From NCBI GenBank assembly GCA_048941265.1, contig JBHLNT010000030.1:1-33517 (forward strand): a stretch of 33,517 nt of DNA, read 5' to 3'. How positions within the stretch are numbered: position 1 is the stretch's first letter; every line of letters starts with the position of its first letter. The position numbers and the translations under genes are program-made. The notes beneath the pieces were generated by a model. That model had not been told where the DNA came from, did no database searches, and saw only the letters and a program-made list of their open reading frames with translations. This DNA comes from Promethearchaeota archaeon (GTDB lineage Archaea > Asgardarchaeota > Lokiarchaeia > Sigyniarchaeales > SOKP01). This document shows, piece by piece, positions 1,694 through 29,768 of this stretch.

Positions 1694-3868
1694 ATGCCTG
1701 ACAAATCTATTTTTTTACCTATTGTTTTTCACTTTCACCAACCAGTTGATAATTTTGGATGGGTTATTGAGGACTCTTTTAAAAAATCATACGAACCGCT
1801 AATAGATAATATTTTCAAATATCCGGAAGTGAAAATTACTCTACATTTTTCGGGAAATATATTGGAATGGTTTTTACAAAATAAACCTGCCTTCATTGAA
1901 AAATTAAAAATCATGGCTAAAAGGGGCCAGATTGAAATGATAGGTGGGGGTTATTATGAGCCCATTTTTGCCATTATCCCTTATCGAGATAAAATAGCCC
2001 AAATGAGAAAATTATCAAATCTTATAAAAAATAAATTCGGATTGGAAGTAAATGGTGCTTGGTTATCTGAACGTGTCTGGGAACCAAATTATCCTTCTTT
2101 TTTAAGCGATGTCGGATTAAAATATGTCTTAGTAGATGATAATCATCTTAGATCTTGTGGATTAACTGAAGATGATACTTTTTACACTTATGTTACTGAA
2201 GATGAGGGAAAAACATTACGAGTATTTCCAATTAATGAACATTTGAGATATTTAACACCCTGGAAACCAACATATTATAGTATTGATTATTTAAGAAAGA
2301 TGGCCGATGAAAAAGGAGACAGAATGGCACTTTTGATCTCTGATGCTGAAAAAATGGGCGTATGGGGATCAACGTATCAGATTTGTTATGTGGATGGTGC
2401 TGGCCATTGGGATGGGGATAATACAAAACCCTTTATTCCCACTTTTTTTGAGCAGATAATTCATAATAAGTGGATTAAATCCATAACACTCTCAGAATAT
2501 ATGAAAAATTACCCCGCAAAGGGATTAGTTTATATTCCAACCGCTAGTTATGATAAAATGGAAGAATGGGTGCTTCCCACTCCAATCAGAAAGAATTTTA
2601 AAAAAGTAAGAAAAGAAATAAAGGATAATGAAAAAAGGCAAATAGAATATCAATTTTTAAAAGGGGGTTTTTGGCGCTATTTTTTAGTTAAATATCCCGA
2701 ATCAAATAATATGCATAAAAAAATGCTGTATGTGCGGGAAAAGTTGATTAAGGTAGAAGAATATCTTGATAAACTAAAAGATAAAGATATAATTTCAAAA
2801 GTAAAACAAAAAGCAGAAGAAGCCTGGGATGAAATATATAAGGCTCAATGTAATGACTGTTATTGGCACGGCTTATTTGGAGGAGTATATTTACAATTTT
2901 TAAGATTTTCAGTCTATACCCATTTAATAAATGCCGAAAGAATGATTGATGAATTAAATATGCTTATTTTTCCTATTCAAAAATCTTACAGAACCTTTAT
3001 TCCTCTCGATTTTAATAAAGATAGTAGATTGGATCTTCTCATAGAATCAGATATCTTAAATGTATATATCAACCCTTCTGATGGAGGAACTATTTTTGAG
3101 CTTGATTATAAACCTAAATTTTATAATTTATTAAATACTCTAACAAGATGGCCTGAGGCTTATCATGAGAGTGAAAAAATCAAGACTGAAGAATTAATGG
3201 TAGATAGATTTAGAAGAACTATGTTAAGATTACGATTCATTCACGATGATGTTTCTCTTAGCCAACTTCATACTGATACTTATTATGAATTTGGAGATTT
3301 TATTGATAGTGAGTTTAAAATGATTAAAACTGAAAAAGATGAAGCTTCCGTAGTTATTGAATTGGAAAAAGAGGGAAGCATCAAAGACATAAATAGTGAT
3401 GATAGACATACTTGCAAAATAGTTAAAAAAATTTTGGTCGAAGAGGAAAGAATTCTCATAGCAATAAAAGGAGAATTCAGTGAAATTGCGGGAATGGAAG
3501 ATATTCTAAGAAGAATTCTCGAAAATTTATACCTCGTAGTAGACCTCCCATTTTTCTTTAATGGAGATACAAACAAATTCAAATGGGAGAGTGCTTTTGT
3601 AGAATTGGTTAATGATAATGAAAAAAATCTATTAGAACCTTTTCAATATATCGGCGACCATTTTAAAGCCTACGATGAGACGTATGATTTGAACTTTGAA
3701 ATCTTATTATCAAGTGATACTGGCGAAGTTAAGATTAACAAATTTCCTATAATAGCTTATGCATATACCGATGAAGGCTATAGAACGATATATCAAGGAA
3801 TAACTTTAGCACCTCAGTTCAAACTCAAGAAAAATTTTCAACTTAATATAGAATTAATTATTTCCTAA
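1694..3868 (+). CDS. GH57 alpha-amylase / 4-alpha-glucanotransferase
   Basis: HFHQP, GGYYEPI, WLSERVWEP (catalytic Glu), SDAEKMG (catalytic Asp), AQCNDCYWHGLFGG; long C-terminal beta domain. Confidence 0.92.
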   Translation: MPDKSIFLPIVFHFHQPVDNFGWVIEDSFKKSYEPLIDNIFKYPEVKITLHFSGNILEWFLQNKPAFIEKLKIMAKRGQIEMIGGGYYEPIFAIIPYRDKIAQMRKLSNLIKNKFGLEVNGAWLSERVWEPNYPSFLSDVGLKYVLVDDNHLRSCGLTEDDTFYTYVTEDEGKTLRVFPINEHLRYLTPWKPTYYSIDYLRKMADEKGDRMALLISDAEKMGVWGSTYQICYVDGAGHWDGDNTKPFIPTFFEQIIHNKWIKSITLSEYMKNYPAKGLVYIPTASYDKMEEWVLPTPIRKNFKKVRKEIKDNEKRQIEYQFLKGGFWRYFLVKYPESNNMHKKMLYVREKLIKVEEYLDKLKDKDIISKVKQKAEEAWDEIYKAQCNDCYWHGLFGGVYLQFLRFSVYTHLINAERMIDELNMLIFPIQKSYRTFIPLDFNKDSRLDLLIESDILNVYINPSDGGTIFELDYKPKFYNLLNTLTRWPEAYHESEKIKTEELMVDRFRRTMLRLRFIHDDVSLSQLHTDTYYEFGDFIDSEFKMIKTEKDEASVVIELEKEGSIKDINSDDRHTCKIVKKILVEEERILIAIKGEFSEIAGMEDILRRILENLYLVVDLPFFFNGDTNKFKWESAFVELVNDNEKNLLEPFQYIGDHFKAYDETYDLNFEILLSSDTGEVKINKFPIIAYAYTDEGYRTIYQGITLAPQFKLKKNFQLNIELIIS

Positions 3869-24427: not shown

Positions 24428-25984
24428 ATGACAAATTCAATAAAAACCAAGAAAAAAATTAAGGTATCCAATAAGTTAAATGAATTAACTGCTAAAGAAT
24501 GGTTGATAAATACAAAGAGTGTGTGGGAATATTCAGATTATCATCTAAATACTGAATATGATAGAGAAATCCGCCATTTGAGAAATCTAATATTATTTTT
24601 CACGAAGAAGAATGATGTCATATTAAATCCTGATAATACTAGAGAAATTGGCGTCGTTGCGGAAAGGGAAGGGCGAGTAATTCTCACTAAACCAAATAAA
24701 GAAGTAGATTTTATTTTAATACAAGCACATAGAAACTTTCCTAATTTAAGATTCTATAAAGATATGCTTCTTTCTGATAAAATTAAATCAGATTTCGTTC
24801 ACTATTTGGATCTTTTAAAAATTGATAAATACCTATGTGTTATGGTAAGAGATTTCTATTTTGGAAGAACTTCGGGGCTGATTTTATATCATTACGATTT
24901 AACTAATCTATTAATAAGTCTTGGATTTAACCTGAAAGGCCTTACGGTATGGATTTCTGATGAAAAAAAAAATACCGATTCTATTGAAGATCCAAATAAT
25001 TCAATCATCAATGATTATTTTCTAATTTTCAGAAAGGAAAAGAAAAAAAAGGAGGATCTAATAAAGAAATCATTTGAATTTCAATTAAATTATGATGAGA
25101 AAAACTATCTAACTAAAAAAACATTATATTATGATAGTTATATAAAAAGTATCACCCCAACAAGGGATAAATTTAAAACTCAGCATCCTGCAACTTTTCC
25201 TGAACCGGATATTAAAAATCTAATTGAATTTTATACCAATTCGAGCAAAAAACCTAAAATCTTAGATCCATTCTCAGGCGTAGGGAGCACTCTTATCGCA
25301 TGTTCAGAATTAAATGTTAACGGATATGGCATCGAATTAACAAAAAAGTGGATTGAATTAACAAAACTTAGATTCTTTTTGAGGGGATTACCTATAAAAA
25401 TTAATGGACAAAAGTTCAATCCTCAACAAAAACCTTTTAATCTTCTCATCAATGAGGCGGATAAAAAGCAACTATTAATTCAAAATATAGAACATGGAGA
25501 TGTGAAAGAAAAAATCCTATTGTTTCCCGATAACTTTTTTGATTTCATAGTAACTAGTCCTCCTTATTGGGGCATATTGACGAAAAAAGCTGACCATAAG
25601 ACCAAAATGGAAAGAGTGAAGAAAGGGTTTGCTACCAAATACACAATTGAGGGTAAAGACCAGACATTTCACAAAGATTTAGCAAATATAGAATCCTATT
25701 CTAAATTCCTTAATCAGCTAAAAATCATTTATAAACATTGTTATAAAAAGTTAAAAAAGAATAAATATATGGCAATAATAGTATCAGATTTCAGAGATGG
25801 TCCCGATTTTTATCTATATCATGGTGATACAGCAAGTATGTTAAAAAATATCGGATTTAGATTAACGGGATTAACCATATTACACCAAGATAATAAAAAT
25901 CTCTATCCCTATGGTTACCCCTATTCCTTTGTTTCAAATATTCATCACCAATTTATTATTATTGTTAAAAAAGAAGGATTATAA
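24428..25984 (+). CDS. DNA methyltransferase (N4-C/N6-A amino-MTase) with a degenerate duplicated N-terminal half
   Basis: HPATFP, motif I DPFSGVGST, motif IV TSPPY; the N-half repeats the C-half motifs without the catalytic residues. Confidence 0.85.
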   Translation: MTNSIKTKKKIKVSNKLNELTAKEWLINTKSVWEYSDYHLNTEYDREIRHLRNLILFFTKKNDVILNPDNTREIGVVAEREGRVILTKPNKEVDFILIQAHRNFPNLRFYKDMLLSDKIKSDFVHYLDLLKIDKYLCVMVRDFYFGRTSGLILYHYDLTNLLISLGFNLKGLTVWISDEKKNTDSIEDPNNSIINDYFLIFRKEKKKKEDLIKKSFEFQLNYDEKNYLTKKTLYYDSYIKSITPTRDKFKTQHPATFPEPDIKNLIEFYTNSSKKPKILDPFSGVGSTLIACSELNVNGYGIELTKKWIELTKLRFFLRGLPIKINGQKFNPQQKPFNLLINEADKKQLLIQNIEHGDVKEKILLFPDNFFDFIVTSPPYWGILTKKADHKTKMERVKKGFATKYTIEGKDQTFHKDLANIESYSKFLNQLKIIYKHCYKKLKKNKYMAIIVSDFRDGPDFYLYHGDTASMLKNIGFRLTGLTILHQDNKNLYPYGYPYSFVSNIHHQFIIIVKKEGL

Positions 25985-26566
25985 GCATTTCTATTTTATA
26001 TTCTGTCCTCATTTAAAACTGGTATCATTACCATAAAAAATTTAAACATAATTCAAAAATTCTCTTCTTTCATTAAAATCTTCATAATAAGTCAAAAAAT
26101 CACTTCTTAGTTGACTACAACTATTATCCATATTTCAATAATAAAGATTTTTATTAGGATTTAACCACAAAATTACTTACTGATTATACCCAGAATGAAT
26201 ATGATCTATCATAGATAGAGGATGAGAGATATTAATTCAAAATTTTTTAAATCTCTAAATAGTAATAATAAAATAGAATTAAAATAAGAATTAACCATAG
26301 TTCGAATAATAATTATTTTCATTATGAAAAAAGTGAATCATTTTTTGTTGTATAATCATTTTTATCAACATATCAATATTTGAAATCATAGTTTTGTATA
26401 AAGAATATTGTCGAAATTTTTTTGATTTAACTTCGTCAGAGTTTACTCTTTCATCAATAAGTTTAAATAGAGCTTCGGTTAATTATTAACTAACAAAATA
26501 TCATTAAAAATTAACCAAAAAAATAAAATTAAATCTTTAAAAGATTTTTTAAAGGAGGAATAAAAA

Positions 26567-26785
26567 ATGGCTAAAAAGAAACAAGCGTTTGCATGGAGCC
26601 CAATTCGAAGGCTCATGAAACAACAAGGTGCCTCAATAGTTGCCAGAAACGCTGTAAATTTGTTAATTGAACATCTTGAAAAATCTGCTGTCGGGTTGAC
26701 TGAACAAGCTCGAGCCTTTACCATGCATGCGAACAGAAAGAAAATAACCAAGAATGACCTCTTACTTGCAATTAAGTATAAGTAA
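26567..26785 (+). CDS. Archaeal histone (single histone fold)
   Basis: SPIRRLMK..GASIVARNAV...ARAFTMHANRKKITKND; strong AAGGAGG SD; T-rich run downstream. Confidence 0.93.
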   Translation: MAKKKQAFAWSPIRRLMKQQGASIVARNAVNLLIEHLEKSAVGLTEQARAFTMHANRKKITKNDLLLAIKYK

Positions 26786-26913
26786 AAAGAACAATCATTC
26801 TTACCCATTTCAAAATTTTTCTATTTTTTTTCTTATTTTCAACTTGAATACTGAGATCTGATTTTTTAAGAAGATGATAGAGTCCGTAATGAATAATGTT
26901 CACATATAAAGTG

Positions 26914-26944
26914 GAAATCAAAAATTTCGGAAGAAATCAAAAAT
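26914..26944 (+). repeat. Two 12-bp direct repeats GAAATCAAAAAT upstream of tnpB
   Basis: Exact copies at 26914-26925 and 26933-26944 (19-bp period). Confidence 0.6.
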
Positions 26945-27025
26945 CTACTTCACTCTTATGGTTTTAATGAAAATGTGAATATGTTTTCTTTAAATTCTTA
27001 TGTTAGAAAGAGATATGAATTGAAT

Positions 27026-28546
27026 ATGATTCAAACTGCTATATTCCGCTTGTATCCCACACCTATGCAGGAAAAAAAATTAGGAACTATTTTCACAGTT
27101 TATAATAGAGTAAAGAGAATTGGATATAACTTACTTTTTGATCTAAAAGATATGGATTATACTAAAACAGAAAAGAGAAAGATAATTCAACCGAAATTAA
27201 TGGAGATTTGCAAGAATAATCCTTATGTAAATACTATTTTAATTCATAATGAAATGAAAGTTGAACAACAACAAACGTGGTATAAAAAAAGAGGAAAATA
27301 TATGAAATTGCAAATTGACACAATTCAAGATAAAATCAATCAAATTAGAGCAAATGACAGGAAAGATAGAAGGTTAAAAGGATTATATAGCCGTTTATCA
27401 TCGATTCAAAATAAATTGAATAATTTAAAGCTTAAGTCCGTAGTATTTGGGACAAAATCTTTATTTCGACAGAGAATCTTAGGAAAAATTAGCAGAGAAG
27501 AATTTAGAATTAGAAGGGATTCTTCATTTTGTTGTATTGGAAAAAAACAAGGAATTAATTTAAATCTTAAAATTCTCTCCAATGAAGCTATTTGGATTCG
27601 TACTTTTTCAAAGGTAAAAGGTAAAAAATGGCTGCTTATTCCACTTTCAGTTAATCAAAGACAAACTAAATGGTTTAATGAGATCTTCGAAGTAGAGAAA
27701 TATACGGTAACTATCAAGCGGAGAATAGTTAAAGGAGAAGTACGATATTTTACCCATGTTTCTTATGAAATTCCCGAATCAGAAATGCGATACGATTTTA
27801 ACAACGGGGTAGTAGGACTTGATTTTAATTATAATTTTGTATCTTTAAGCAATATAGACCAAAACGGGCTTTTTAAGAGTTATCATGAAATATCCTTTAG
27901 AAATATGCATACATTAAGAAAGAATAGACGCCTTGATTACATTAGCTACAAAATGGATAAAGTAGTAAATTATTGCATTAATAAGAAGAAAGGAGTAGTA
28001 ATTGAGGATTTATCTTTTGTACAAAAATTTTCATATAACAAGACACTTAATCGTAAATTAAGCAATTTCAAGATTAAAGCATTAGAATTATTAGAGAACA
28101 AGTGTATCAAAAAGGGTGTAGCTCTTAGAAAGGTTCACCCTGCTTATACTTCTCTCATTGGTAAATATAAATACTCACGTTCACTTAACTTATCTACTCA
28201 CATTTTAGCAAGTTATGTGATTGCTCGAAGAGGGATGGGATTTAAGGAAATATTTCCACCCATTTACAAGTGGTTACTCTCACAAGTCGGAGATAATATA
28301 AAACTCCGTTTGAAAAAGGGTAGTCCCTACAGTAAATGGTCGCAAATCCACGACTTTTTCAAGCACAGCGGGATAACATCCTTCAAGGCTCCCGACGTAA
28401 TGAAAAAAACATTACAAATGAAGTATGCCTTGAATCCGGCGACGGGCGTACAGCCTGATAACCTTAGGGCTGGTCTTTCCCCTTCGGGAAAGATTGAAGA
28501 TTATCATAAATTTTGGAATTTTATAGAATTTTCCAATTTTTTATAA
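27026..28546 (+). CDS. tnpB: TnpB-related RNA-guided RuvC protein (Zn-finger-less clade)
   Basis: N-terminal QTAIFRLYPT; RuvC-I GLDFN; RuvC-II VIEDL; VHPAYTS; STHILASYVIARRG. Likely ATG is 27026 (track start GTG 26975). Confidence 0.85.
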   Translation: MIQTAIFRLYPTPMQEKKLGTIFTVYNRVKRIGYNLLFDLKDMDYTKTEKRKIIQPKLMEICKNNPYVNTILIHNEMKVEQQQTWYKKRGKYMKLQIDTIQDKINQIRANDRKDRRLKGLYSRLSSIQNKLNNLKLKSVVFGTKSLFRQRILGKISREEFRIRRDSSFCCIGKKQGINLNLKILSNEAIWIRTFSKVKGKKWLLIPLSVNQRQTKWFNEIFEVEKYTVTIKRRIVKGEVRYFTHVSYEIPESEMRYDFNNGVVGLDFNYNFVSLSNIDQNGLFKSYHEISFRNMHTLRKNRRLDYISYKMDKVVNYCINKKKGVVIEDLSFVQKFSYNKTLNRKLSNFKIKALELLENKCIKKGVALRKVHPAYTSLIGKYKYSRSLNLSTHILASYVIARRGMGFKEIFPPIYKWLLSQVGDNIKLRLKKGSPYSKWSQIHDFFKHSGITSFKAPDVMKKTLQMKYALNPATGVQPDNLRAGLSPSGKIEDYHKFWNFIEFSNFL

Positions 28547-28565
28547 ATAATATGAAGGTTTTCAA
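28315..28565 (+). ncRNA. Putative omega-RNA/reRNA scaffold overlapping the tnpB 3' end
   Basis: Locally GC-rich hairpin cluster: AGGG/CCCT; TTCAAGGC(28382-89)/GCCTTGAA(28427-34) enclosing GTAATG/CATTAC; CAGCC/GGCTG; TCTTTCCC-CTTC-GGGAAAGA (28474-28493). Boundaries are approximate. Confidence 0.5.
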
Positions 28566-28670
28566 CTTGAATTTAGTTTATATCTTGCGAAAAATTTTAT
28601 AAATAAATTATTTGAACTCTAATTGGTATAATTATAGTTTAATTCAGAATAAGCACAATAGAGAAGAATT

Positions 28671-29768
28671 ATGTCAGAAAAATTATGGTATAAAGCAGCA
28701 AGAAAATTTGTAAACGCGGGAAGACTTCCTCTACCAATAACTGATAATGTTATTGAAGTATTAAAAACGCTATTAACTGAAGAGCATGCTAAATTTATCG
28801 TAAAATTTAAAAAGAAATCTTATAATAACGAAGAAATTAAGTCCTTAACTGATTTAGATGATAATGCGCTTGATAAAATGCTTAATGACCTTATGTATGC
28901 CGGAGCAATTACAGGAATCCCCAGTAGGACTACTGGCATTATGGTTTATCGATTAGCGCCGCTACTGCCAGGTTTACTTGAGTTTACCCTAATGCGGGGA
29001 GAATACGGAGAAAAAGATAAAAAATTAGCAAATTTACACAAAGGATTTTTTGATGATTTAGTCGAAGGAACTCAAAAAAATTATGACCAACTCATGAAAG
29101 AGTACAATAGAGTTCCCGGAATCGCCAGAGTTATTCCTGTAGAAGAAGAGATTGAACCAAGACAAGAATTAGTACTGCCTTTGGAAGAACTATCTAAAAT
29201 TTTAGATAATTACGATACCATCGGAGTGGCTTCTTGTTATTGTAGGCACCGAAAAGATCTTATTAATGAGCCATGTAAAAAAACAGATGATAGGAAAAAT
29301 TGTTTCTCCTTTGGCAGAACTGCAGAATTTCTAATATCTCAAGGCTTTCAGGAGCGAGTCTCAAAAGAGGAAGCGATGAAAATCTTAAAAAAATGCGAAG
29401 ATGACGGACTTGTTCATAAAGCTTTTCACACTAATCTGGATCCTGAAAAGGAAATAGATGGTATATGCAACTGCTGTCAATGTTGTTGTGGAACTTTTGA
29501 GGCTCATTACGCTGGAGCATTTCCATTAATGGATATTTCAACTTACTTAGCAAGTGTCAACACAGATGACTGTGTGGGGTGTGGCACATGTGTTGAAAAT
29601 TGTAATGCCAATGCTATAGAACTTCAAGATACTGTTGCTGTTATAAACGAAAAAAGATGTGTAGGGTGTGGTATTTGTGCTCATTTATGTCCCGAAAGTG
29701 TGATAACTATGAATAGAACTGAAATGAGAAAAGTATTTGTTCCGCCACCAAAATTAACCAGCATATAA
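28671..29768 (+). CDS. 4Fe-4S dicluster-binding protein with additional Cys clusters
   Basis: CYCRH, ICNCCQCCCG, CVGCGTCVENC, CVGCGICAHLCP. Confidence 0.88.
   Translation: MSEKLWYKAARKFVNAGRLPLPITDNVIEVLKTLLTEEHAKFIVKFKKKSYNNEEIKSLTDLDDNALDKMLNDLMYAGAITGIPSRTTGIMVYRLAPLLPGLLEFTLMRGEYGEKDKKLANLHKGFFDDLVEGTQKNYDQLMKEYNRVPGIARVIPVEEEIEPRQELVLPLEELSKILDNYDTIGVASCYCRHRKDLINEPCKKTDDRKNCFSFGRTAEFLISQGFQERVSKEEAMKILKKCEDDGLVHKAFHTNLDPEKEIDGICNCCQCCCGTFEAHYAGAFPLMDISTYLASVNTDDCVGCGTCVENCNANAIELQDTVAVINEKRCVGCGICAHLCPESVITMNRTEMRKVFVPPPKLTSI

What the first reader, a model, noticed from the sequence alone, without database searches (positions are those of the whole stretch)
26836..28572. Solo tnpB-like gene bracketed by a perfect 14-bp direct repeat with a palindromic core, inserted behind the histone gene
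Seen: TTTTCAACTTGAAT at 26836-26849 and 28559-28572, containing the interrupted palindrome TTCAA-C-TTGAA. Removing 1723 bp would leave one copy just after the histone T-tract. Known: IS200/IS605 and IS607 elements normally make no target-site duplication, IS608/ISDra2 right ends finish in TCAA, and the TnpB guide derives from the sequence flanking the right end. Alternative inferences: (a) mobilisation by att-like recombination or by another transposase that makes long duplications; (b) the downstream copy, which follows GG, is the guide and matches the upstream copy, giving self-targeting or autoregulation; (c) chance overlap of end motifs.
Basis: partly seen in the sequence, partly recalled or inferred. 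Interest (0 to 1): 0.7.

Follow-up and report, generated by a model that had tools for sequence, protein, structure and literature searches.

The report
Solo archaeal TnpB transposon, 14-bp flanking repeat
A transposase-less copy of an archaeal IS607-type mobile element carrying an RNA-guided TnpB-like gene sits between a histone gene and an iron-sulfur gene, and its odd 14-base flanking repeat is real, leaves one copy in element-free strains, and makes the element's predicted guide RNA match its own left end.

Summary
TTTTCAACTTGAAT occurs exactly at 26836-26849 and 28559-28572, P about 0.002 by shuffling. Element-free alleles keep one copy: a congeneric genome, and a near-identical metagenome contig that skips exactly 1723 bp.

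The element is not IS200/IS605. It is a tnpA-less member of an IS607-type family. In 5 of 19 related loci a MerR-HTH/resolvase serine transposase lies upstream of the same TnpB-like gene. The protein has a Cas12f/TnpB fold, an invariant His at the RuvC-III position and no zinc finger. The last ~210 nt fold into a covarying omega-RNA-like scaffold ending at the right end.

All 34 copies read end in ...AAGG-TT. All 22 main-type left ends follow TATT. One main-type copy with three empty sites duplicates only TT.

So the 14-mer is the canonical TT core plus 12 extra bases shared by the left-end terminus and the right flank. That flank is the predicted guide position, and the left copy follows TATT, so guide bases 1-12 match the element's own left end. 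Sixteen other copies share only 2-7 of 12.

The target also resembles the family's left-end palindrome. How the 12 extra bases arose is unresolved. The element is an ordinary family member with an unusual junction.

The parts
26567..26785 (+). Archaeal histone gene (72 aa), the left neighbour; it is followed by a T-rich tract up to about 26833.
   Evidence: Pfam CBFD_NFYB_HMF, E 3.8e-8. The orthologue in G003:C120 is 93% identical.
26834..26837 (+). TATT, the target-adjacent motif (candidate TAM). Its last two T (26836-26837) are the left copy of the TT crossover core.
   Evidence: TATT directly precedes all 22 main-type left ends read. In the empty sites for L031 the TATT belongs to the target. 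This parallels TGGG with a GG core in the CboIStron (passages of 10.1101/2023.11.20.567912).
26836..26849 (+). Upstream copy of the 14-bp repeat: TT core plus a 12-mer (26838-26849) that occupies the position of the left-end terminal segment.
   Evidence: TATT + 13 nt + CTGAGAT matches the family layout of TATT + 13-14 nt + (C/T)TGAAAT (read by eye).
26838..27025 (+). Left-end non-coding region, presumably holding the promoter. It contains two 12-nt direct repeats GAAATCAAAAAT at 26914-26925 and 26933-26944.
   Evidence: 26850-27025 aligns with the region upstream of the tnpB-like gene in L042 (z 7.6, 0 of 200 shuffles as good). It is 78% identical to a remnant in G003:C331. Direct repeats: family D15.
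27026..28546 (+). TnpB-like gene (506 aa). D266 and E327 are invariant, H392 is invariant at the RuvC-III position, and there is no zinc finger.
   Evidence: NCBIfam TIGR01766 scores 41.2 bits against a cut-off of 32. Alignment A2. AF2 model pLDDT 76.6. Foldseek: Cas12f 7wju E 2.4e-9, ISDra2 TnpB 8exa E 4.8e-5.
28352..28560 (+). Omega-RNA-like structured region overlapping the 3' end of the gene. Helix 1 pairs GACUU (28352-28356) with the terminal AGGUU (28556-28560).
   Evidence: RNAalifold on 24 copies gives 43 pairs in 7 helices. 97.1% of cells are paired. Nine pairs show compensatory change against 2.7 +/- 1.2 in shuffles (0 of 500), and slid controls give at most 4. Coordinates. Single-sequence fold z -3.67.
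28559..28560 (+). TT, the right copy of the crossover core and the last two bases of the conserved right end.
   Evidence: 34 of 34 distinct right ends read ...AAGG-TT and then diverge (24, 10).
28559..28572 (+). Downstream copy of the 14-bp repeat.
28561..28580 (+). Predicted guide-encoding flank (length assumed 16-20 nt). Its first 12 nt equal 26838-26849.
   Evidence: Position inferred from the scaffold end and from IS607 TnpB precedent. No RNA data are available.
28671..29768 (+). 4Fe-4S dicluster protein gene, the right neighbour.
   Evidence: Pfam Fer4, E 2.2e-11. The orthologue in G003:C120 is 84-85% identical.

Best explanation
The segment 26838-28560 is a non-autonomous, tnpA-less member of an IS607-type transposon family of Asgard-like archaea.

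Full members carry a MerR-HTH/resolvase serine transposase, a TnpB-like RNA-guided-nuclease homologue (RuvC D-E-H, no zinc finger), and an omega-RNA-like scaffold in the last ~210 nt.

The family inserts at 5'-TATT-3' by exchange at the TT core, so normally only TT is repeated. Here the repeat is that TT plus 12 further bases that are identical in two places. One is the terminus of the left end, directly after TATT. The other is the right flank, directly after ...AAGG-TT.

The 12 bases pre-existed in the target, as the empty alleles show. They resemble the family's left-end palindrome (TTCAAC...TTGAA), so the element sits in a pseudo-left-end site.

I infer a canonical TnpA insertion at that left-end-like TATT site. 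A later homogenisation of the similar left-end terminus and flank then produced the perfect identity. Possible routes are recombinational repair or homing after a TnpB cut, or flank capture through an alternative TT.

One consequence follows directly from the sequence: the predicted guide (from 28561) matches the element's own left end for 12 nt next to a TATT.

Shown: family membership, ends, TT core, TATT, empty alleles, RNA covariation.
Inferred: TAM function, guide use, nuclease activity, and the origin of the 12 bases.
For: Repeat and chance.

Empty alleles with one copy: G003:C120 and the run X3 contig that skips 1723 bp with 14 shared letters. Exchange between TT 26836-37 and TT 28559-60 removes exactly 1723 bp.

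Family: a 208-aa TnpA (Resolvase 1.2e-22, HTH_17 2.5e-11, MerR 1.1e-8) lies directly upstream of the homologous gene in 5 of 19 loci with a large tnpB match, and a 33-aa remnant in a sixth.

Right end: 34 of 34 copies read AAGG-TT and then diverge.

Left end: 22 of 22 main-type copies read TATT-N4-CAAC-like arm.

Canonical insertion: L031 reads GCTTAA-TATT-ATTCCAAC...GAAGG-TT-AATATTAG, against the empty site GCTTAATATT|AATATTAG in G009, G004 and G005.

Identity between the left-end terminus and the right flank, in register: window 12 of 12; 16 other copies 2-7 of 12.

Likeness of the target to a left end: TATT-N0-4-CAAC-N0-8-TTGAA occurs 34 times in the 5.01-Mb genome, against 21 for the reversed control.

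Protein. A clade with RuvC-III Asp-to-His and no zinc finger is described in PMC10691335 (passages).

RNA.

Precedent for a TAM that contains the core, and for a scaffold that ends in the core: 10.1101/2023.11.20.567912 (passages). IS607 makes no target duplication and exchanges at a 2-bp core: PMC6188088 (passages).
Against: A 12-bp identity beyond the core is not produced by any described IS607 reaction, and no other copy shows it. My step from 'similar' to 'identical' is therefore ad hoc.

Sixteen other copies show no preference for left-end-like targets (2-7 of 12), so target mimicry is not a family habit.

The window's left end is a rare variant. It aligns with L042 only from (T)ACTGA, immediately after the upstream repeat copy, and L042's preceding bases are unrelated. 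That alignment can also be read as 'the element starts after the 14-mer', which would make the repeat behave like a true target duplication.

No cognate TnpA was found in this genome (91% complete).

The empty alleles could equally be derived from the occupied allele, by TT-core excision or by slippage between the repeats. They therefore do not date the repeat.

No RNA data exist, and nuclease activity with His at RuvC-III is unproven.

The left-end-likeness pattern was defined after I had seen the sequence.
Confidence: 0.6

Rival explanations
1. Scar of RNA-guided homing. An ancestral canonical copy sat at this TATT. TnpB with its guide cut an empty allele. During recombinational repair from the occupied allele, the broken left end kept its 12 TAM-proximal target bases and primed synthesis from the left end's second palindrome arm (TTGAAT/TTGAAAT). 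This replaced the native 13-14-nt left-end terminus with target sequence.
For: The repeat starts exactly at the TT core on both sides and lies entirely within the predicted guide-matched target. The 12-mer replaces a segment of almost the same length (13-14 nt) in the family layout. The target ends in TTGAAT, a microhomology to the left end's second arm. This route needs no TnpA in the genome, and none was found. Occupied and empty alleles exist in near-identical strains. TnpB homing is established for IS605 and IS607 elements (passages of 10.1101/2023.11.20.567912).
Against: There is no evidence that this His-type, zinc-finger-less TnpB cuts DNA, or where it would cut. No canonical ancestral allele has been seen. 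The model needs an unusual repair outcome. It leaves a guide that seeds on the element itself, which might be harmful.
Confidence: 0.15
2. Flank capture in two TnpA steps. The element first inserted at a TT about 12 nt further right (AATT at 28570-28573 in target numbering). It was then excised using the better upstream TATT and pseudo-left-end as its left site, carrying 12 nt of flank. Finally it reinserted at TATT in an intact copy of the same locus.
For: L042, the only other copy with this left-end type, is flanked by AATT rather than TATT. The target has TATT plus a left-end-like palindrome that could serve as an alternative left site. IS607 TnpA tolerates non-canonical dinucleotides (passages).
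Against: The model predicts ...GAA-TT-ACTGAG at the left junction, but the sequence reads ...GAAT-ACTGAG, one T short. It needs three events and return to the same locus. No TnpA was found in the genome.
Confidence: 0.1
3. True 14-bp target-site duplication made by an unrelated enzyme that cuts with a 14-nt stagger (for example a Cas1-type casposase or a DDE transposase acting in trans). The element would then run from ACTGAG (26850) to GAAGG (28558).
For: Homology with L042 starts right after the upstream copy. The empty alleles have one copy. That casposons make 14-15-bp duplications is recalled knowledge, not taken from any call.
Against: The duplication would have to start by chance with the TT that all 34 of 34 family right ends carry after AAGG. 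It would also have to follow TA so as to give the family's TATT, and it would have to resemble the left-end palindrome. No terminal inverted repeats appear among the 25 longest of 66 inverted pairs. No other copy has such a duplication. I did not search for Cas1.
Confidence: 0.08
4. The 12-mer is the element's native left-end terminus, and its identity with the flank is pure coincidence; or the whole 14-mer repeat is chance.
For: The DNA is AT-rich (GC 29.7%). Exact 12-nt repeats do occur by chance in this 2.9-kb stretch (families D14 and D15).
Against: P is about 0.002 for 14 nt or more between the two intergenic stretches. There are only 3 exact copies in 5 Mb. The repeat is in register with the core on both sides. 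The 16 other copies share 2-7 of 12.
Confidence: 0.04

Closest known systems
IS607-family transposons with TnpA_S + TnpB + omega RNA, e.g. the CboIStron of Clostridium botulinum (10.1101/2023.11.20.567912), IS607 and IS1535 (PMC6188088)
   Same: The serine transposase has an N-terminal MerR-type HTH and a resolvase domain and lies upstream of tnpB. No terminal inverted repeats were seen. Exchange is at an identical 2-bp core present at both junctions and in the target. The target-adjacent motif includes the core (TATT here, TGGG there). The right end and RNA scaffold end in the core with a different -3/-4 (GGTT here, TCGG there). Solo tnpB derivatives are common.
   Different: The core is TT and the motif TATT, not GG and TGGG. 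The host is archaeal. The TnpB has His at RuvC-III and no zinc finger. This copy carries 12 extra identical bases beyond the core, which IS607 elements are not reported to make (PMC6188088, abstract and passages).
TnpB clades with a rearranged RuvC-III (Asp to His) and no C4 zinc finger ('RIIIr-4'), and archaeal serine-recombinase-associated clades ('Ser-6'), in Altae-Tran et al. 2023 (PMC10691335)
   Same: His is invariant at the RuvC-III position and the zinc finger is missing. The family is associated with a serine recombinase and is found in archaea. Conservation of the substitution suggests retained activity (the paper's argument; passages).
   Different: I could not place this protein on their tree. 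The supplements are closed and no sequences from the paper were available, so assignment to RIIIr-4, Ser-6 or another branch is open. RIIIr-4 is described as including MazE-associated and virus-borne members, and neither was seen here.
   Same: They carry a TnpB-type gene with a 3' omega RNA, the guide comes from the right flank, and they normally make no target duplication.
   Different: No Y1 (HUH) transposase is associated with the family; a serine recombinase is. The right end is GAAGG-TT, not TCAA. Insertion is by 2-bp core exchange.
TldR / nuclease-dead TnpB-like repressors (recalled from memory; no paper read here)
   Same: Both are TnpB relatives with an altered RuvC site. A guide with a partial match near a promoter-bearing region suggests possible binding without cutting.
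   Different: This family is multicopy, mobile and associated with a transposase. D and E are intact and the His is invariant. I have no evidence of inactivation or domestication.

Membership tests
IS607 family | Serine-recombinase transposase with an N-terminal MerR-like HTH and a resolvase catalytic domain, encoded upstream of tnpB | tested here: met
   Met for the family: L032 TnpA (208 aa) scores Resolvase 1.2e-22, HTH_17 2.5e-11, MerR 1.1e-8. It is adjacent in 5 of 19 loci. The window copy itself lacks tnpA, and none was found in the genome.
IS607 family | Identical 2-bp core at both junctions and in the target; no further target duplication | tested here: met
   Family: L031 compared with three empty sites duplicates only TT, and 34 of 34 right ends carry TT. 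The window copy deviates: TT plus 12 further identical bases.
IS607 family | No terminal inverted repeats | tested here: met
   None of the 25 longest of 66 inverted pairs joins the two termini.
IS607 family | Short directly repeated subterminal motifs that bind TnpA | tested here: inconclusive
   TATAAA(W)(W)T-like motifs recur in main-type left and right ends (by eye), but they could be archaeal TATA boxes. The window's left end has GAAATCAAAAAT twice. No binding data exist.
IS607 family | Excision as a circle and reintegration by TnpA | not testable with these tools
   The only support is indirect: the empty allele equals the product of TT-core excision.
TnpB / OMEGA RNA-guided nucleases | TnpB/Cas12f-like fold (WED, REC, RuvC) | tested here: met
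   Foldseek against PDB: 82 matches at E of 0.001 or less; the top is Cas12f 7wju at 2.4e-9, and ISDra2 TnpB 8exa scores 4.8e-5. TM-scores are modest (0.3-0.47) and model pLDDT is 76.6. NCBIfam TIGR01766 is above its cut-off. Sequence evidence is weak elsewhere: Pfam matches are all below cut-off, and a PDB profile search gave 0 hits at E of 10 or less.
TnpB / OMEGA RNA-guided nucleases | Canonical RuvC D-E-D triad | tested here: not met
   D266 and E327 are invariant, but the third position is an invariant H392 in 15 of 15 sequences. This matches the described 'rearranged' clades. Activity is unknown.
TnpB / OMEGA RNA-guided nucleases | C4 zinc finger between RuvC-II and RuvC-III | tested here: not met
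   There are no Cys pairs between YTS and NLS.H in alignment A2.
TnpB / OMEGA RNA-guided nucleases | Structured omega RNA overlapping the 3' end of the gene and ending at the right end, followed by a guide taken from the flank | tested here: met
   Covariation: 9 pairs with compensatory change against 2.7 +/- 1.2 in shuffles (0 of 500) and at most 4 in slid controls. The scaffold ends at AGGUU. Expression and processing are untested. No Rfam family matches.
TnpB / OMEGA RNA-guided nucleases | TAM-dependent, guide-dependent DNA cleavage | not testable with these tools
   TATT as the TAM is inferred from 22 of 22 left flanks and one set of empty sites.
IS200/IS605 | Y1 HUH transposase; subterminal hairpins; insertion 3' of a tetra- or pentanucleotide; right end cleaved after a TCAA-like motif | tested here: not met
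   The associated transposase is a serine recombinase. The right end is GAAGG-TT. Insertion is by TT core exchange. I did not search the whole genome for Y1 transposases.
Transposons making long target duplications (casposons and similar) | Terminal inverted repeats and a fixed-length 14-15-bp duplication at every copy | tested here: not met
   No terminal inverted repeats. Among ten other full copies, the right flank shared exact words of 8-13 nt with the upstream region, but in only three was the word at flank offset 0, and none lay in register with the left-end terminus. L031's 9-mer at offset 0 is explained by a repetitive target. In register, other copies share 2-7 of 12. I did not search for Cas1.

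The most novel reading that the evidence does not exclude
The 12 extra bases are a natural scar of RNA-guided homing in an Asgard-type archaeon. TnpB cut the empty allele, and repair copied the element in while keeping the TAM-proximal part of the target. The element now carries, next to a TATT, a 12-nt seed match to its own guide at its left end. This could make the TnpB-RNA complex bind its own end without cutting it, giving autoregulation or protection of the end. It would also record where this His-type, zinc-finger-less TnpB cuts.
Probability: 0.12. Interest if true: 0.7.

Novelty: new member of a known kind. Interest (0 to 1): 0.4.

Why it matters
The work defines the ends, the TT core and a candidate TATT TAM for a large IS607-type TnpB family. 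More than 300 clusters at 90% identity were found, and their sources label them as Asgard-group MAGs. The enzyme has His instead of Asp at RuvC-III and no zinc finger. The work also gives a covariation-supported scaffold for the family's guide RNA, which makes the family directly testable as a compact RNA-guided system.

The locus itself is a natural occupied/empty polymorphism, and at it the guide matches the element's own end. That could inform how TnpB elements tell self from non-self, and whether homing leaves scars.

If the 12 extra bases turn out to be a simple accident of recombination, the locus is an ordinary solo-TnpB insertion.

Tried and rejected
Searches that found nothing:
- Rfam search of 26500-28900 at E of 1 or less: no match.
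- PDB sequence search with the family profile at E of 10 or less: no match.
- Pfam: only sub-threshold matches for the TnpB-like protein.
- No RNA holder is listed among the sequencing runs, so expression could not be examined.

Closer relatives:
- No locus closer than 68-70% aa was found in genome contigs or metagenome contigs.

Empty sites for other copies:
- L042 (G008:C4): the right-flank gene is found in G001, G000 and G009, but the left-flank ORF is not adjacent there.
- L043: the nearest relative differs upstream, so there is no clean comparison.

G003:C331 left-end remnant: its left boundary is ambiguous, either right after GGATT or about 36 nt further on. It therefore does not settle where this left-end type starts.

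Further searches for the window's left-end type in 40 relatives and in 135 genomes of the family found only G003:C331 and a 40-nt hit in G101.

Ideas I dropped:
- That the solo copies' left regions are remnants of the tnpA 3' end. Alignment of 26850-27025 with five tnpA 3' regions gave z from -1.3 to 1.6.
- That L031's 9-bp repeat TTAATATTA is a target duplication. It comes from a repetitive target, TAATATT-AATATTA.
- A 5'-truncation / retroposition-like origin. The window's left non-coding region (176-188 nt) is not shorter than in other solo copies.
- A pre-existing tandem duplication of the 12-mer in the target. The X3 empty allele has one copy, though that allele could itself be derived.

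The third exact 14-mer in the genome (C300) has an unrelated context.

Supplements of PMC10691335 and of the bioRxiv preprint were not available. They may hold the clade assignment and the omega-RNA boundaries for this family.
Full report
**Observation.** The 14-mer TTTTCAACTTGAAT is present without mismatch at 26836-26849 and 28559-28572, 1723 bp apart. The identity stops on both sides: A versus G before the copies, A versus T after them.

I compared the stretch between the histone stop and the tnpB-like start (240 nt) with the stretch between the tnpB-like stop and the 4Fe-4S start (124 nt). A shared exact word of 14 nt or more arose in 9 of 5000 mononucleotide shuffles and 13 of 5000 first-order Markov simulations. 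The whole 5.01-Mb genome holds three exact copies. The third lies in an unrelated context. The repeat is real and is not explained by chance.

**The gene.** The frame 26975-28546 is open, but all homologues align from about residue 15-20. The likely start is therefore ATG 27026, giving 506 aa.
- Sequence searches are weak. Pfam gives only sub-threshold matches to HTH_OrfB_IS605 and Cas12f1-like_TNB. NCBIfam TIGR01766 'TnpB-related' scores 41.2 bits against a cut-off of 32, and guided_TnpB 41.8 against 100, both covering only residues 310-401. A profile of 15 family members finds nothing among PDB sequences.
- An AlphaFold2 model built from that alignment (pLDDT 76.6) matches Cas12f (7wju, E 2.4e-9), Cas12k, Cas12g and ISDra2 TnpB (8exa, E 4.8e-5).
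- In the alignment (A2) D266 (GLDFNY) and E327 (IEDLS) are invariant. The position of the third RuvC aspartate is an invariant His (NLS.H[IV]LASYVIARRG). No zinc-finger cysteines lie between RuvC-II and RuvC-III.
- Passages of Altae-Tran et al. 2023 (PMC10691335) describe exactly such TnpB clades: RuvC-III Asp to His, no C4 zinc finger, some archaeal and associated with serine recombinases. The authors argue from conservation that these enzymes are active. I could not assign the clade because the supplements are closed.

**The family and its transposase.**
- Homologues at 56-71% identity occur in 15 of 61 related genomes. At E of 1e-200 or less they occur in 15 of 161 genomes of the class.
- The large protein collection holds 307 clusters among the 8000 candidates scored. 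Their sources label them as Promethearchaeota/Lokiarchaeia, Hermod- and Thorarchaeota MAGs, and NCBI names several 'IS200/IS605 family accessory protein TnpB-related protein'.
- Many hits are only the last 40-110 codons, often at contig ends.
- In 5 of 19 loci with a large tnpB match, a 208-aa protein is encoded directly upstream; a sixth keeps a 33-aa remnant. That protein has HTH_17/MerR and Resolvase domains. This is the IS607 transposase architecture.
- The window copy has no tnpA. None was found in the genome with this query (the genome is 91% complete, so absence is not shown).

**Ends.**
- Right end: in 24 distinct copies and 10 more the sequence ...TTTTTTATAAATAATTAGAAGG-TT is conserved and everything after TT differs, 34 of 34. 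The third base in the first 24 is A 13, G 7, T 3, C 1.
- Left end: 22 main-type copies read TATT-N4-CAAC-(T/A)GTTNG-TTGAAAT-TTTATAAAA... with unrelated sequence before TATT. I left out seven loci: the window and L042 (a variant left end), L087 (no left end in view), L090 (deviant), and L153, L155 and L158 (left end outside the stretch shown).
- Empty sites for one main-type copy settle the boundary. In G006:C180 the junctions are ...GCTTAA-TATT-ATTCCAAC... and ...CGAAGG-TT-AATATTAGTTT. In G009, G004 and G005 the site reads ...GCTTAATATT|AATATTAGTTT.
- So TATT belongs to the target, only TT is present twice, and the left end starts directly after TATT.
- This mirrors the experimentally studied IS607-type CboIStron. 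There TnpA_S targets TGGG with a GG core, TGGG is also the TnpB TAM, and the omega-RNA scaffold ends in UCGG (passages of 10.1101/2023.11.20.567912). It also agrees with IS607 making no target duplication (PMC6188088, abstract and passages).

**RNA.** I aligned the last 250 nt plus TT of 24 copies. They are far more conserved than the rest of the gene. RNAalifold predicts 43 pairs in 7 helices. On that structure:
- 97.1% of cells are paired;
- 9 pairs show changes on both sides, against 2.7 +/- 1.2 in shuffles (0 of 500 reach 9) and at most 4 when partners are slid by 1-3 columns.

The alignment and structure come from the same sequences, so the paired percentage is inflated; the compensatory counts are the more telling measure. 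In window coordinates the structure spans 28352-28560, and helix 1 pairs GACUU (28352-28356) with the terminal AGGUU (28556-28560). The window sequence alone folds with z = -3.67. No Rfam family matches. I read this as an omega-RNA-like scaffold that ends with the TT core, so a guide would start at 28561. No RNA data are available.

**The repeat in this frame.** The upstream copy is preceded by TA, which gives TATT at 26834-26837. The downstream copy is preceded by GAAGG. Both copies therefore begin with the TT core, in register with the family's junctions.

The extra 12 bases (TTCAACTTGAAT) are the first 12 bases after TATT on the left and the first 12 bases after GGTT on the right. In 16 other copies with both ends identified, the same comparison gives 2-7 identities out of 12. 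Five of the 21 rows printed by that call are false hits of my pattern without the CAAC arm, and I dropped them. A long repeat is therefore not a property of the family.

**Empty alleles.**
- In G003:C120 the histone and 4Fe-4S genes are 183 bp apart with one related copy...CTTATTTTCAAATTCAACTTAAAATTGG.
- In run X3 a contig joins 26835 to 28559 with 14 letters fitting both sides, with 0 differences over 140 nt on the left and 3 over 241 nt on the right.
- Runs X1 and X2, from another study, carry the occupied allele across the left junction (records 3 and 11).
- Exchange between the two TT cores would remove exactly these 1723 bp, and so would slippage between the repeats. The empty alleles therefore show that one copy is the unoccupied state. 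They do not show which state is older.

**Is the 12-mer element or target?** The evidence points both ways.

For the target:
- It is present in the empty alleles.
- The window's left region aligns best with L042 (z 7.6), and that alignment starts at (T)ACTGA, just after the upstream copy. L042's preceding bases are unrelated.

For the element:
- The family layout TATT + 13-14 nt + (C/T)TGAAAT is kept in the window (TATT + 13 nt + CTGAGAT) and in L042 (TATG + 13 nt + CTGAAAAT) (by eye).
- The 12-mer looks like the main-type terminal palindrome without its loop: TTTCAAC[TGTTTG]TTGAAA.
- A TATT followed within 4 nt by CAAC-N0-8-TTGAA occurs only 34 times in the genome, against 21 for the reversed control. 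I defined that pattern after seeing the sequence.

My reading is that the target was a pseudo-left end. The element's own terminus and the flank, similar at first, then became identical. Alternatively the terminus was replaced by target sequence during TnpB-triggered repair, or through flank capture at an alternative TT. None of these steps is shown.

A plain 14-bp target duplication by an unrelated enzyme needs three coincidences: starting with TT after AAGG, following TA, and resembling the left end. It also finds no support in other copies.

**Consequence.** Whatever its origin, the predicted guide (from 28561) equals the element's own left end for 12 nt next to the family's TATT. In the CboIStron, self-cleavage at the RNA template is avoided by a difference at TAM position -3. 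Here the right end has GGTT against TATT, which is analogous. But the left junction offers TATT plus a 12-nt seed. Whether that leads to binding, cutting or nothing is untested.

**Comparison and novelty.** The element works like, and by its tested features belongs to, the IS607 family. Its TnpB comes from a catalogued 'rearranged RuvC-III' type. The TT/TATT specificity, the family-wide end definition and the RNA scaffold are new details for an Asgard-associated family. I found no paper on them with two full-text searches (the only paper holding 'Asgard', 'TnpB' and 'IS607' together is PMC10691335). The 12-bp extension of the core repeat is, as far as these searches go, not described for IS607 elements. 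It rests on one locus.

**Verdict.** The element is a new member of a known kind with one unusual, unexplained junction. Interest 0.4.

Noticed in passing
relatives, e.g. L037, L038, L039, L040, L046-L048, L051, L094-L102: Very many copies of only the last 40-250 nt of the element (the RNA-scaffold region plus AAGG-TT) survive without the rest of the gene, often at contig ends. L040 and L099 begin abruptly about 170-190 nt before the right end. These could be solo omega-RNA remnants or assembly breaks at repeats.
   Followed up: partly
window 24428-25984 (+): A 518-aa ORF upstream of the histone gene matches DNA methylase N6_N4_Mtase (E 6.3e-23) and, below its cut-off, the Eco57I methylase family.
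   Followed up: no
window 26914-26925 and 26933-26944: Two exact 12-nt direct repeats GAAATCAAAAAT, 19 nt apart, lie inside the left non-coding region (D15). They align with the A-rich 'AAATTCAAAAAAATC' block of other left ends. They may be a promoter element or a TnpA-binding element.
   Followed up: no
L104 (G003:C331), about 1100-1673, minus orientation: A ~140-nt remnant 78% identical to the window's left region sits in a ~540-nt insertion between uvrC and a small Zn-ribbon gene. That insertion is absent from G007, G000 and G001. The rest of it is unrelated to tnpB, and its boundaries are unclear.
   Followed up: partly
L087, 1350-1686: Directly upstream of this family member, the DNA appears to encode the C-terminus of a canonical TnpB (my translation by eye reads ...ADVNGAFNILRR...). 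That suggests two different TnpB types in tandem.
   Followed up: no
L032, about 3160-3235: About 70 nt after the right end of the full tnpA+tnpB element there is what looks like a tRNA gene on the opposite strand. It was not run through the tRNA finder.
   Followed up: no
own genome: The 4Fe-4S neighbour has 22 matches at E of 1e-20 or less in this genome and many in relatives, so it belongs to a large paralogous family. Only G003:C120 is clearly the orthologous locus.
   Followed up: no
L090, L155, L158, L160: upstream of tnpB: Several 'solo' copies keep short remnants of the tnpA 3' end or internally deleted tnpA. This was shown by tblastn for L090 and seen only by eye for the others. It suggests repeated independent loss of tnpA.
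   Followed up: partly
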